Below are positions 56,701-58,239 of a stretch of DNA of 64,000 nucleotides, piece after piece (the stretch's first letter is position 1; each line of letters opens with the position of its first letter). The position numbers were made by a program, and so were the translations under genes. This DNA is from Felis catus. Lineage: Eukaryota. Location: NCBI RefSeq assembly GCF_018350175.1, contig NC_058382.1, positions 15,438,001 to 15,502,000 of the forward strand, in the 5' to 3' direction. The notes beneath the pieces are model-generated. The model was not told the origin of the DNA and did no database searches. It worked only from the letters and a program-made list of their open reading frames with translations.

Positions 56701-57054
56701 GCCCAGGTATTTCTGCAAGAAGAGGTTGGGCAAATGTCCAGAGCCCAGTGGGGTGCGGATCCATGACCTCTCCCATTCACCTGACCCCAGTCCCCTCACC
56801 TCGTTCTGGTCGGTGGGTGCATCCACCAGCAGGCTGAACACACTGTCCAGCGTCTCCAGGGGCTCTAGATCAAAAAAGCGGTCGCTCCTGCCTTCCTCGC
56901 CTACCGCCTCGAACTTGATCAGAACAACGTGCCAGATACACTCCTGGATATCCTCCTTCGCCCACAGCCTCCCCGGTGCCAATAGCACCGCCAGTAGTGC
57001 CCACATGGCCCGCAGGACTCGGAGTTTCGGCCACGCGGGGCCAGCAGGGTACAT
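32995..57054 (-). CDS. CATSPERG: Cation channel sperm-associated auxiliary subunit gamma; 28 coding exons, 3483 nt, 1160 aa
   Basis: Signal peptide ([16 protein letters not shown]), large ectodomain with motifs [44 protein letters not shown], single C-terminal TM; every intron GT-AG with consistent phase and no in-frame stop seen. Confidence 0.96.
33362..33461 (-). CDS. CATSPERG: CATSPERG coding exon 27
   Basis: [33 protein letters not shown]. Confidence 0.92.
33551..33643 (-). CDS. CATSPERG: CATSPERG coding exon 26
   Basis: [30 protein letters not shown]. Confidence 0.92.
34666..34755 (-). CDS. CATSPERG: CATSPERG coding exon 25
   Basis: [29 protein letters not shown]. Confidence 0.92.
35055..35150 (-). 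CDS. CATSPERG: CATSPERG coding exon 24
   Basis: [13 protein letters not shown]...IYRFNSPLD. Confidence 0.92.
35301..35364 (-). CDS. CATSPERG: CATSPERG coding exon 23
   Basis: [20 protein letters not shown]. Confidence 0.92.
35568..35724 (-). CDS. CATSPERG: CATSPERG coding exon 22
   Basis: [20 protein letters not shown]...PCFLFRD. Confidence 0.93.
35865..36075 (-). mobile_element. CanSINE
   Basis: Antisense SINE flanked by TGATCGTTATTATT duplication. Confidence 0.9.
36981..37719 (+). mobile_element. MLT1B/C-like LTR with a CanSINE inserted at ~37161
   Basis: TGAACTGTGTGTCCC...GGGTCTTTACAGGTGTAATCAAGTTAAAATGAGG...TTTGTTACGGCAGCCCCAGGAAACAAATACA. Confidence 0.75.
37995..38211 (-). mobile_element. 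CanSINE
   Basis: Flanked by GATTGAGCACCTATT duplication; internal 13-nt tandem duplication. Confidence 0.9.
38373..39290 (+). mobile_element. Three CanSINEs (heads at ~38373, 38848, 39054) amid an old L1 remnant
   Basis: SINE heads, (CT)n tracts and A tails. Confidence 0.8.
39672..40072. mobile_element. CanSINE (-) interrupted by a 5'-truncated CanSINE (+)
   Basis: 13-bp duplication AAGAGTTGGATGC at 39841-39853 and 40031-40043. Confidence 0.88.
40691..40747 (-). CDS. CATSPERG: CATSPERG coding exon 21
   Basis: [19 protein letters not shown]. Confidence 0.88.
40838..40918 (-). CDS. CATSPERG: CATSPERG coding exon 20
   Basis: [27 protein letters not shown]. Confidence 0.9.
41043..41164 (-). 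CDS. CATSPERG: CATSPERG coding exon 19
   Basis: [15 protein letters not shown]...INRNSVLFR. Confidence 0.9.
41281..41479 (-). CDS. CATSPERG: CATSPERG coding exon 18
   Basis: DYYFYLASN...[10 protein letters not shown]...FTPER. Confidence 0.9.
41562..41621 (-). CDS. CATSPERG: CATSPERG coding exon 17
   Basis: [20 protein letters not shown]. Confidence 0.9.
41922..42135 (-). CDS. CATSPERG: CATSPERG coding exon 16
   Basis: [19 protein letters not shown]...LHSEYHK. Confidence 0.92.
42883..42995 (-). CDS. CATSPERG: CATSPERG coding exon 15
   Basis: [15 protein letters not shown]...FFERQ. Confidence 0.92.
43089..43247 (-). CDS. CATSPERG: CATSPERG coding exon 14
   Basis: IWYLLEGSY...YEDTKLYQ. Confidence 0.92.
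43732..43772. repeat. (CA)n microsatellite
   Basis: Perfect run. Confidence 0.95.
44226..44337 (-). CDS. CATSPERG: CATSPERG coding exon 13
   Basis: [15 protein letters not shown]...VTETEE. Confidence 0.92.
44848..44977 (-). CDS. CATSPERG: CATSPERG coding exon 12
   Basis: [14 protein letters not shown]...IWGNFLLQ. Confidence 0.92.
45082..45132 (-). CDS. CATSPERG: CATSPERG coding exon 11
   Basis: [16 protein letters not shown]. Confidence 0.88.
45656..45775 (-). CDS. CATSPERG: CATSPERG coding exon 10
   Basis: [21 protein letters not shown]...FQVVSYDL. Confidence 0.9.
45973..46032 (-). CDS. CATSPERG: CATSPERG coding exon 9
   Basis: [19 protein letters not shown]. Confidence 0.88.
47048..47185 (-). 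CDS. CATSPERG: CATSPERG coding exon 8
   Basis: [16 protein letters not shown]...HFGTIT. Confidence 0.92.
48294..48412 (+). mobile_element. 5'-truncated CanSINE
   Basis: AAAAGATAAGGCTG duplication at 48280 and 48399, at a TT/AAAA target. Confidence 0.85.
48543..48748 (-). mobile_element. CanSINE
   Basis: Antisense SINE pattern. Confidence 0.85.
48807..48886. repeat. (TG)n followed by (CT)n microsatellite
   Basis: Compound dinucleotide runs. Confidence 0.92.
49156..49327 (-). CDS. CATSPERG: CATSPERG coding exon 7
   Basis: [14 protein letters not shown]...ESNQGS. Confidence 0.92.
49886..50190 (+). mobile_element. MLT1-like LTR
   Basis: GTTATGGACCGAATTGCGTCCCC...CTTGATCTTGGACTTCCA...TTGTTTAAGCCCCAC. 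Confidence 0.65.
50450..50870 (+). mobile_element. L1 3' fragment
   Basis: CAAAACCACAA; CCTATGATCCAGCAATT; TTTATTGTAGCATTATTTAC. Confidence 0.7.
51075..51230 (-). CDS. CATSPERG: CATSPERG coding exon 6
   Basis: [33 protein letters not shown]...FFLVE. Confidence 0.92.
51830..52050 (+). mobile_element. CanSINE
   Basis: GGGGCGCCTGGG head through A tail. Confidence 0.88.
52371..52443 (-). CDS. CATSPERG: CATSPERG coding exon 5
   Basis: [24 protein letters not shown]. Confidence 0.9.
52615..52741 (-). CDS. CATSPERG: CATSPERG coding exon 4
   Basis: [19 protein letters not shown]...FIQNK. Confidence 0.9.
52997..53141 (-). CDS. CATSPERG: CATSPERG coding exon 3
   Basis: [16 protein letters not shown]...APFRSK. 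Confidence 0.92.
55090..56490 (+). mobile_element. Old L1 (L1M-type) 3' fragment
   Basis: ORF2 C-terminal-like [52 protein letters not shown]; 3' UTR ending TTGCACACTTTAA. Confidence 0.8.
56659..56712 (-). CDS. CATSPERG: CATSPERG coding exon 2
   Basis: [18 protein letters not shown]. Confidence 0.92.
56800..57054 (-). CDS. CATSPERG: CATSPERG coding exon 1 (exon begins at 57083)
   Basis: MYPAGPAWP...DAPTDQNE. Confidence 0.9.
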
Positions 57055-57099
57055 CGCGGGGCAGCGCGCAACGTGGCTCGAACCTGGAGAATGGGGGGG

Positions 57100-58239
57100 T
57101 CAACACCCGCCAGCAAGACTGCGCCGGAAAGCCGTCTTCTGAGATGCTACCATGCTCCTGAGCTTCCCCTGGCGCTTGCTCCTGGCCCCACCTCTGCTCA
57201 GACTTCTGGCCCCACCCCTGCTCTTTCTCCTGGTCCCACCCCTGCTCTTGCTCCTGGCCCCTCCCCCGCTCTTGCTTCTGGCCCCGCCCCTGCTCTTGCT
57301 TCTGGCCCCGCCCCTGCTCTTACTTCTGGCTCCGCCCCTGATCTTGCTTCTGGCCCCGCCCCTGCACTTGCTTCCTGCTCCGCTTCTACTCCAGACTTCG
57401 CCCCTGACCAAGGTGCTGTATCTGCTCCTATTCTGGATCCCACCTCTACTATTAGTCCAGGTCCCTCCTCTACTGTTGCTCCTGGACACGCCCCTGCTCC
57501 TGGTGTCGCCTCGCCTCCTCGCTTCACCCCTTAAACTCGCCCTGTAGTTGTTCTTTGCTCCGCCTCCGCTCTGCATCTGGCCCCTACTCTTCACCGGGTC
57601 TCGGTTACTGTTTCTGACTTTGTCTGTGCCCCACCTACTTTCTCCAGTCCTGCTGCTCCCTCTGGTCGTGCACCTGCACTTGCACTTGCACCTGGTTTCG
57701 CCCCCACTTTTTGCCCCGCCCCCCCACATCTCTTCGCATCTCCCCTTTCTCCTGGCCCGGGCCCTACCCTGGTACCGAGTCCTGTATCTAGCCTCTCCCT
57801 TCTCCGGATCCTGGGCCCAGACCTTCCCCACGCCCCGCCCCTTTCCCTGTCCCCGCCCCTTTTTCTCTCCTGGAGTTTGCTCCTCCCTCTGCTTCCCCGC
57901 CTTGTTGCGCCCGTGTTCCTCGACCCATCCTAGCTCTTCGACCCGTTCCTTATCGACCCGCCCTTTCCCCTGGTCCTTGGAGAGCTGTTCTTCTCGATCC
58001 TGCCCCTCGCCCCGCCCCCTCCTAAAGCCACGCCCACCCCCCTTAGAGACCCTCTCTTTGCCTTGGGATCTCTTCTCGCCACTGGCCTTCCCTTCGCCCC
58101 GCGCCTTCTCCTCGCCCTGCACCTTTTTCTCCTTCCACCCCGGCGCTACCTTGTCGGTCAGCACTTTCTCTATCCTCACCATCCCCCCGAGACGCGACAC
58201 CTTTTCACCCCACTCTCTCTTTTCACGACACTTTTCCAT
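57100..58239 (-). CDS. Unannotated candidate ORF, 379 aa, basic RGG/RS-repeat protein upstream of the CATSPERG coding start
   Basis: GGC ATG G Kozak; 379 open codons; repeat periods are multiples of 3; synonymous-biased repeat divergence; no expression evidence. Confidence 0.5.
   Translation of the reverse strand: MEKCREKREWGEKVSRLGGMVRIEKVLTDKVAPGWKEKKVQGEEKARGEGKASGEKRSQGKERVSKGGGRGFRRGRGEGQDREEQLSKDQGKGRVDKERVEELGWVEEHGRNKAGKQREEQTPGEKKGRGQGKGRGVGKVWAQDPEKGEARYRTRYQGRARARRKGRCEEMWGGGAKSGGETRCKCKCRCTTRGSSRTGESRWGTDKVRNSNRDPVKSRGQMQSGGGAKNNYRASLRGEARRRGDTRSRGVSRSNSRGGTWTNSRGGIQNRSRYSTLVRGEVWSRSGAGSKCRGGARSKIRGGARSKSRGGARSKSRGGARSKSGGGARSKSRGGTRRKSRGGARSLSRGGARSKRQGKLRSMVASQKTAFRRSLAGGC
57175..57390. 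repeat. 24-bp minisatellite, 9 units (consensus CTTGCTTCTGGCCCCGCCCCTGCT)
   Basis: Units start at 57175 + 24n; degenerate units continue toward ~57600. Confidence 0.92.

What the first reader, a model, noticed from the sequence alone, without database searches (positions are those of the whole stretch)
57052..57102. The hidden ORF is in frame with CATSPERG, separated by one TGA-C stop and 15 sense codons
Seen: 58239-57054 = 1185 nt = 395 codons. After TGT TGA the frame reads CCC CCC CAT TCT CCA GGT TCG AGC CAC GTT GCG CGC TGC CCC GCG ATG straight into MYPAGP. The TGA overlaps a branch-point-like TTGAC just before the polypyrimidine tract and AG (57085-57084). Known: UGA followed by C is the leakiest stop context, and long upstream ORFs repress downstream initiation. 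Inference: an unspliced transcript would be bicistronic, so splicing could switch between the basic protein and CatSper-gamma. Readthrough, or loss of the stop in some lineages, would give an N-terminally extended gamma subunit whose signal peptide may act as an anchor. Frame coincidence has a 1-in-3 chance prior.
Basis: partly seen in the sequence, partly recalled or inferred. Interest (0 to 1): 0.7.

Follow-up and report, generated by a model that had tools for sequence, protein, structure and literature searches.

The report
Hidden gene inside cat CATSPERG intron
A long reading frame inside the first intron of the cat sperm-channel gene CATSPERG lines up in frame with that gene in this genome copy, but the alignment differs in RNA assemblies of the same species and, by inference from protein models, in seals, so it is likely a coincidence; the frame itself stays open in cats, sea lions and a desman and likely encodes a separate small basic protein.

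Summary
Observation confirmed: a 379-codon ORF (58239-57100, minus strand) ends in TGA-C, 45 nt and in frame before the CATSPERG ATG. The readthrough idea fails. The C7 run after the stop reads C8 and C9 in 2 of 2 runs covering it (the C9 contig is shallow). Two phocid seal models put this TGA out of frame, and another mammal's homologue ends in a third frame (inferred from proteins). The TGA doubles as a branch-point-like TGAC. The N-terminally extended gamma subunit is already in NCBI models, made by splicing from at least 6 different internal donors. What survives is the ORF itself: 0 of 27 stop triplets in its frame, codon periodicity, open for 230 or more codons in otariids and a desman (neutral simulation P at most 0.006), yet changing at a near-neutral amino-acid rate and frameshifted in 6 of 13 other homologues. 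One assembly carries it unspliced and continuous with exon 2. Best reading: a lineage-patchy, intron-nested basic protein made from intron-retaining transcripts and not frame-coupled to CATSPERG. Translation is untested.

The parts
57100..58239 (-). Hidden ORF, 379 aa, G/R/K/S/E-rich, pI about 11.6, no Pfam match, no hydrophobic segment; start codon in strong context (GGC ATG G)
   Evidence: homologues
57100..57102 (-). TGA stop of the ORF, overlapping branch-point-like TTGAC (A 17 nt from intron end)
   Evidence: sequence; branch-point role inferred
57093..57099 (-). C7 run in the polypyrimidine tract; reads C8 in run X4 (depth 38) and C9 in run X9 (depth 3.3), which shifts the register
   Evidence: table 4; consequences
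57084..57085 (-). Intron 1 splice acceptor AG used by felid, otariid and desman models
   Evidence: inferred from model junctions
56800..57083 (-). CATSPERG first coding exon: 29-nt leader, ATG at 57054, signal-peptide-like hydrophobic stretch, start of PF22840
56713..56799 (-). 87-nt GT-AG intron; spliced and retained forms at equal depth in run X4
56659..56712 (-). Next CATSPERG exon
   Evidence: sequence, junction
57166..57374 (-). 24-nt tandem repeat, 8.7 copies, encoding GGARSKSR-type RGG/RS units
57762..57767 (-). Phase-1 internal donor (codon 158) used by cat, fishing-cat and jaguar fused models
57633..57638 (-). Phase-1 internal donor (codon 201) used by cheetah, clouded-leopard, snow-leopard and jaguar X4 fused models
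58507..58512 (-). Likely donor of upstream exon 1 (intron 1 would be 1429 nt and contain the whole ORF)
   Evidence: inferred from harbour-seal model P0042 and the sequence
32998..56659 (-). Remaining CATSPERG coding exons
   Evidence: tblastn of cat model P0047, 25 segments

Best explanation
The in-frame spacing of this ORF and CATSPERG is likely a coincidence of a length-variable C run, and the ORF likely encodes its own basic, predicted-disordered 379-aa protein, made from intron-retaining transcripts and ending at an ordinary TGA that likely doubles as the intron branch point. Steps: (1, shown) the ORF sits just upstream of the splice acceptor and ends 45 nt before the CATSPERG ATG; (2, shown in one run) RNA exists that is continuous over ORF and exon 2; (3, inferred) scanning ribosomes would start at the strong-context ATG 58239, stop at the TGA and rarely reinitiate, so such RNA would make little CatSper-gamma and is a predicted NMD target because more than 20 exon junctions follow; (4, inferred) splicing from upstream exon 1 removes the ORF and gives normal gamma; (5, predicted by NCBI models, junction not seen here) splicing from internal donors gives minor fused isoforms whose junction differs by lineage; (6, inferred) selection has kept the frame open in felids, otariids and a desman, and it has decayed in several other mammals.
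For: Register not fixed: C8/C9 in 2 of 2 covering runs; either would send readthrough out of frame. Phocid models read GVDPLSRFESRCTLPPAM, i.e. the +1 frame enters CATSPERG (P0001, P0042); homologue P0088 shifts into the third frame and runs past the ATG. TGAC-compatible residues persist in all three frames (C*, VD, VT), as a branch point would. ORF real: stops by frame 0/9/18 (0/7/16 outside the repeat; chance 5e-5 and 3e-4), 3-nt periodicity p=6e-6 outside the repeat against p=0.86 in the equally purine-rich upstream flank; single copy. Open for 231 codons in sea lion and fur seal with one 1-codon gap, and 253 codons in Galemys; simulated neutral survival at most 0.006 (otariid) and 0 of 2000 (desman) in all 16 settings. 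Pinnipeds have 31 instead of 29 nt between acceptor and ATG (inferred), which would break phase-1 fusions, yet their ORF stays open, so the constraint is not on the fusion. RNA: contig 56800-58409 unbroken at depth 38 plus a GT-AG junction at depth 32 in X4; X24 first mates lie on the + strand across the ORF, fitting sense RNA.
Against: Amino-acid identity is at the neutral level: cat-jaguar 93%, cat-sea lion 71%, cat-desman 59%, against 98/87/73% for the CATSPERG body and simulated neutral 94/66-73/42-51%. All 4 of 4 substitutions seen in the ORF are non-synonymous (73% expected by chance). 6 of 13 homologous fragments shift frame and 6 others end inside the ORF, by stop or contig end. Open-frame species were found by searching with the ORF, so they are selected; simulation distances and indel rates are my assumptions. 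Orthologue evidence is from predicted proteins only; the desman model could hide frameshifts behind false introns; openness beyond codon 270 is shown only in this genome. X4 retains the 87-nt intron at 50%, so its unspliced contig may be pre-mRNA; tissue unknown; X1 gave nothing, X24 only 11 reads. No stand-alone full-length homologue. No translation data.
Confidence: 0.55

Rival explanations
1. The ORF is an alternative first coding exon: splicing from internal donors to the 57083 acceptor makes CatSper-gamma with a 40-260 aa basic N-terminal extension, which would turn the signal peptide into a signal anchor with a cytoplasmic basic tail.
For: 33 of 44 fetched CATSPERG models, from 12 species, carry such an extension (set selected by searching with the ORF). 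Phase-1 donors are in frame with the 29-nt leader; the 29-nt leader is shared by felids, the desman and P0088's source.
Against: At least 6 different junctions (codons 42, 60, 158, 201, 231, about 260-266), not one conserved; pinnipeds need phase-2 donors; 10 of 44 models have no extension; no such junction in 4 of 4 runs laid (rare forms are dropped from contigs). I could not see the RNA support behind the models.
Confidence: 0.2
2. The ORF is non-functional now: a decaying relic of an old coding sequence, or a by-product of a T-poor, purine-rich promoter-proximal intron; fused models are annotation of splicing noise.
For: Neutral-level amino-acid divergence, 4 of 4 non-synonymous variants, frameshifts in 6 of 13 fragments, two of them on records seen on 3 contigs each, T only 9.5%, no family match.
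Against: Composition does not explain it (0 of 3000 shuffles; 27 stops in the other two frames); survival of the frame in three lineages is improbable under neutrality.
Confidence: 0.2
3. One reading: programmed readthrough of UGA-C (or lineage loss of the stop) joins the whole ORF to CATSPERG as a 395-aa N-terminal extension.
For: In frame with no stop in the spacer in this assembly. UGAC is the leakiest 4-nt stop in human cells (PMC7089771, section 9 part 1 read). P0088's source appears to keep the same TGA-to-ATG distance (inferred).
Against: Register broken by C8/C9 in the same species and in seals; in P0088 the upstream frame no longer meets that TGA. The same paper says readthrough of normal stops is rare and that following C/G lowers it; here the stop is followed by a C run and a GC-rich spacer. 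0 of 44 models cross the stop.
Confidence: 0.04

Closest known systems
NCBI predicted CATSPERG isoforms with N-terminal extension (e.g. cat XP_044901940.1, cheetah XP_026900772.2, sea lion XP_027475427.2, Galemys KAG8524417.1)
   Same: Same start ATG and same first 42 to about 260 residues of the hidden ORF.
   Different: They splice out of the ORF into exon 2; none contains the C-terminal RGG/RS repeat or the TGA, and none treats the ORF as a protein of its own.
Vertebrate bicistronic transcripts with a coding upstream ORF (SLC35A4/STREMI, PMC13303939; abstract, passages and supplement search seen; SNURF-SNRPN and MIEF1 recalled)
   Same: A second, conserved ORF upstream of a known gene on one transcript, with likely translational repression of the downstream gene.
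   Different: Here the ORF is long (379 aa), low-complexity, lies in an intron that can be spliced out, and is broken in several mammals. CATSPERG appears in that paper's supplements only in an expression table (one file was cut when stored).
Programmed stop-codon readthrough genes (UGA-CUAG class such as AQP4, LDHB; recalled)
   Same: UGA followed by C, open frame downstream.
   Different: Context is UGA-CCCC, not CUAG; register is not conserved; the extension would be a whole downstream gene.
Basic RGG/RS-rich low-complexity proteins, including fast-evolving spermatid basic proteins (recalled)
   Same: 108 K+R of 379 residues, 9 RGG and 14 RS motifs.
   Different: No Pfam domain and no sequence homology to any of them found; resemblance is compositional only.

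Membership tests
Programmed stop-codon readthrough | Leaky 4-nt stop UGA-C | tested here: met
   sequence; PMC7089771 section 9
Programmed stop-codon readthrough | Extended CUAG motif (recalled) or A/U-rich downstream context | tested here: not met
   TGA is followed by a C run
Programmed stop-codon readthrough | Frame register across the stop conserved within and between species | tested here: not met
   C8/C9 alleles in 2 of 2 covering runs; phocid models and P0088 out of frame (from proteins)
Programmed stop-codon readthrough | Ribosome footprints or reporter activity past the stop | not testable with these tools
   no Ribo-seq or assay available
Bicistronic vertebrate transcript (SLC35A4/STREMI type) | Both ORFs on one mature, predominant transcript | tested here: inconclusive
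   unbroken contig in X4, but intron 2 half retained and contigs are not single molecules
Bicistronic vertebrate transcript (SLC35A4/STREMI type) | Purifying selection on the upstream ORF | tested here: inconclusive
   frame kept beyond neutral expectation in three lineages, residues not; broken in 6 of 13 fragments
Bicistronic vertebrate transcript (SLC35A4/STREMI type) | Translation of the upstream ORF shown | not testable with these tools
   no Ribo-seq or proteomics
Conserved alternative first coding exon of CATSPERG | One splice junction conserved across species | tested here: not met
   at least 6 junction positions among 33 models
Conserved alternative first coding exon of CATSPERG | Junction seen in RNA | tested here: inconclusive
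   none in 4 of 4 runs, with poor depth and unknown tissue
CATSPERG (downstream gene) | CATSPERG NTD, beta-propeller, Ig-like and C-terminal Pfam domains | tested here: met
   4 of 4 above cut-off in cat model P0002; cat model P0047 maps to the window's exons

The most novel reading that the evidence does not exclude
An unannotated, roughly 380-aa basic RGG/RS protein gene, at least as old as the split of carnivores and eulipotyphlans, is nested in CATSPERG intron 1 and shares its promoter; intron retention versus splicing switches one transcript between this protein and the CatSper-gamma subunit during spermatogenesis, and the gene is being lost independently in other mammals.
Probability: 0.3. 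Interest if true: 0.72.

Novelty: new member of a known kind. Interest (0 to 1): 0.4.

Why it matters
The readthrough claim does not hold, and the extended subunit is already a database prediction. If the ORF is translated, mammals have an overlooked sperm-linked protein hidden in the first intron of a CatSper subunit gene, current annotation of CATSPERG N-termini in cats and seals is likely wrong (a separate gene spliced onto gamma), and intron retention would offer a simple way to keep CatSper-gamma protein off while the promoter is on. It is directly testable with existing carnivore genomes and testis data.

Tried and rejected
Orthologous DNA was not obtained: two metagenome scans found 592 and 598 pattern matches and 0 confirmed loci; the genome search holds no relatives. 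So every cross-species register statement rests on predicted proteins. Pfam gave no family for the ORF. The protein atlas gave no usable hit for the sea-lion homologue (no evidence either way). A profile search for longer proteins added no species (10 hits, all seen before). Of 40 phmmer hits I fetched 16 and aligned 13 (12 of these plus cluster mate P0088) to the window; hits confined to the repeat were treated as compositional. Run X1 laid 0 contigs (filter possible); only 4 of 24 listed runs were laid, over 56500-58540, so little of exon 1 was covered and an exon-1 junction could be missed as a joint. No structure was predicted: the sequence is low-complexity. Six literature searches listed no paper on a CATSPERG upstream ORF, intron retention or readthrough (listings and abstract starts only; most subscription papers are not held; the 2009 CATSPERG paper was not held). 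PMC9205950: term search only, nothing useful. Earlier findings: none. Rejected: the +strand Leu-rich ORF 57152-57547 as a gene (mirror of the repeat); composition alone as cause of the ORF.
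Full report
Locus. The window is the CATSPERG region of a felid, most likely the domestic cat: the ORF's first 158 residues are identical to cat model P0002 and cat model P0047 maps to the window exon by exon. Gametogenetin lies at 14049-16022, as expected for this neighbourhood (synteny recalled).

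Observation. On the minus strand an ORF runs from ATG 58239 to TGA 57102-57100 (379 aa). Fifteen sense codons follow, then the CATSPERG ATG at 57054, in the same frame. The splice acceptor AG is at 57085-57084, 29 nt before the ATG, and the TGA lies in TTGAC with its A 17 nt from the intron end.

Is the register meaningful? No. (a) Laid on 56500-58540, both runs that cover the site differ from the window in the C run behind the stop: one extra base in X4 (contig depth 38) and two in X9 (depth 3.3, may be error); X1 and X24 do not cover it. With either allele readthrough leaves the CATSPERG frame and stops inside exon 2. Homopolymer slippage or a reference error cannot be excluded, but no run showed C7. 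(b) Weddell-seal and harbour-seal models read GVDPLSRFESRCTLPPAM into the CATSPERG start. That is the +1 frame relative to the ORF's AFRRSLAGGC-stop and implies a 43-nt spacer. Otariid models share the FESRCTLPPAM end, i.e. 31 rather than 29 nt from acceptor to ATG. (c) An unnamed mammalian homologue, P0088, seen on 3 contigs, shifts into the third frame, passes the acceptor and ends past the CATSPERG ATG. (d) 0 of 44 fetched CATSPERG models cross the stop. Points b-d rest on predicted proteins, because no orthologous DNA could be fetched. The residues at the site (C-stop, VD, VT) are all compatible with a retained TGAC, which a branch point explains without readthrough (inference). UGAC is the leakiest 4-nt stop, but the same source reports that readthrough of normal stops is rare and lowered by following C/G (PMC7089771, section 9 part 1).

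The extended subunit is already predicted, by splicing. A search for longer proteins returned 13 NCBI/UniRef CATSPERG models that begin with ORF sequence. With cluster members, 33 of 44 models from 12 species (8 felids, 2 otariids, 1 phocid, the desman Galemys) carry an ORF-derived extension, 10 have none and 1 has an exon-1-derived one (the set is biased by the query). Junctions fall at ORF codons 42, 60, 158, 201, 231 and about 260-266. In cats any phase-1 donor is in frame with the 29-nt leader, and such donors are common. No such junction appeared in the 4 runs laid. A junction that moves by lineage looks more like minor splicing captured by annotation than a conserved isoform (inference).

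Is the ORF real? For: 0 of 3000 shuffles of either kind give an ATG-ORF this long. Stop triplets fall 0/9/18 across the three frames, 0/7/16 outside the repeat, and codon periodicity is strong (p=6e-6 outside the repeat) while the equally purine-rich flank shows none (p=0.86). It is the second-longest stop-free frame of 24 of 200 or more codons in the window, after gametogenetin, and single-copy. The start ATG has a strong context and a Met start at this position is kept in felids, otariids, the desman, a tamarin model and 3 unnamed fragments, but lost in P0052. The frame is open for 231 codons in sea lion and fur seal with one 1-codon gap and for 253 codons in Galemys. Simulated neutral evolution under my assumed distances and indel rates leaves it open in at most 0.6% (otariid) and 0 of 2000 (desman) runs. 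The pinniped 2-nt change in the leader would break phase-1 fusions, yet the ORF stayed open, which points to selection on the ORF itself rather than on its fusion (inference). Against: amino-acid identity (93, 71, 59%) matches neutral expectation and is well below the CATSPERG body (98, 87, 73%); 4 of 4 substitutions seen are non-synonymous; of 13 homologous fragments 6 shift frame and 6 others end inside the ORF, by stop or contig end, while the tamarin model has a degraded stretch; no stand-alone full-length homologue was found; open-frame species were selected by the search.

Expression. In X4 (RNA is a guess by the tool, but it holds a GT-AG junction 56800-56712 at depth 32) one 1611-nt contig spans 58409-56800 unbroken at depth 38, so no common splice form branches at the 57083 acceptor in that sample. 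The 87-nt intron is retained at equal depth, so pre-mRNA or DNA may contribute. X24, a poly(A) library read to about 2%, laid 11 reads; across the ORF all first mates lie on the + strand, which fits sense transcription. Tissues are unknown and contigs are not molecules.

Mechanism. Most likely three RNA fates share one promoter: exon-1 splicing (donor likely 58512, inferred from P0042) removes the ORF and yields normal CatSper-gamma; intron retention or an intronic start yields RNA led by the 379-codon ORF, which would make the basic protein, repress gamma translation and likely trigger NMD; minor internal splicing yields fused forms. Only the anatomy, the register variation and the existence of continuous RNA are shown. 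Translation and function are inferred.

Known or new. It is not a programmed-readthrough gene (register test failed). It works most like a long-uORF or bicistronic locus (PMC13303939; abstract, passages and supplement search), with membership unproven. Six literature searches listed nothing on this ORF (listings only). Verdict: the finding as written is a coincidence (worth about 0.1); the ORF behind it is a credible unannotated, lineage-patchy gene candidate. Interest 0.4.

Noticed in passing
window 56713-56799: The 87-nt second intron is retained at the same depth as it is spliced in run X4 (32.7 vs 32.3); the unspliced frame continues to a stop at 56470.
   Followed up: partly
window about 57105 and about 57131 (homologous sites): Weddell-seal and harbour-seal models appear to use acceptors upstream of the one at 57084, so 3' splice-site choice here varies by lineage (inferred from P0001, P0042).
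   Followed up: partly
window 57153, 57863, 57913, 58037: Four variants in the ORF, all non-synonymous: M363V, K126R, H109Q, G68D; each seen in X4 and X9.
   Followed up: yes
window 57152-57547 (+) and 57548-58312 (+): Antisense frames are long and Leu/Pro-rich (131-aa ORF; 255-codon stop-free run); likely shadows of the purine-rich strand.
   Followed up: no
window 58460 and 58295 (-): Two out-of-frame ATGs precede the ORF start (one opens a 66-aa ORF ending at 58260) and could dampen its translation on long transcripts.
   Followed up: no
window 57084-58500 (-): Nine GC-box-like GGGCGGGG motifs and three G-quadruplex-like matches on the sense strand; may add nucleotide-level constraint.
   Followed up: partly
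window 57729 (-): Clouded-leopard, snow-leopard and jaguar X4 models start at the internal Met171, hinting at a second start site within the intron.
   Followed up: no
window 57669-57691: A 6-nt repeat encodes a CKCKCRC cysteine cluster kept in otariids and two unnamed homologues but not in the desman.
   Followed up: no
window 14049-16022 (+): Gametogenetin (PF15685) coding exon, another testis gene.
   Followed up: partly
window about 59170-59425: Carnivore SINE-like element with CT and A-rich tail and an AC microsatellite (family recalled, not tested).
   Followed up: no
PMC13303939 supplement: Human CATSPERG has a base mean of 63 reads in that paper's cultured-cell RNA-seq table, so the gene is transcribed at low level outside testis.
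   Followed up: no
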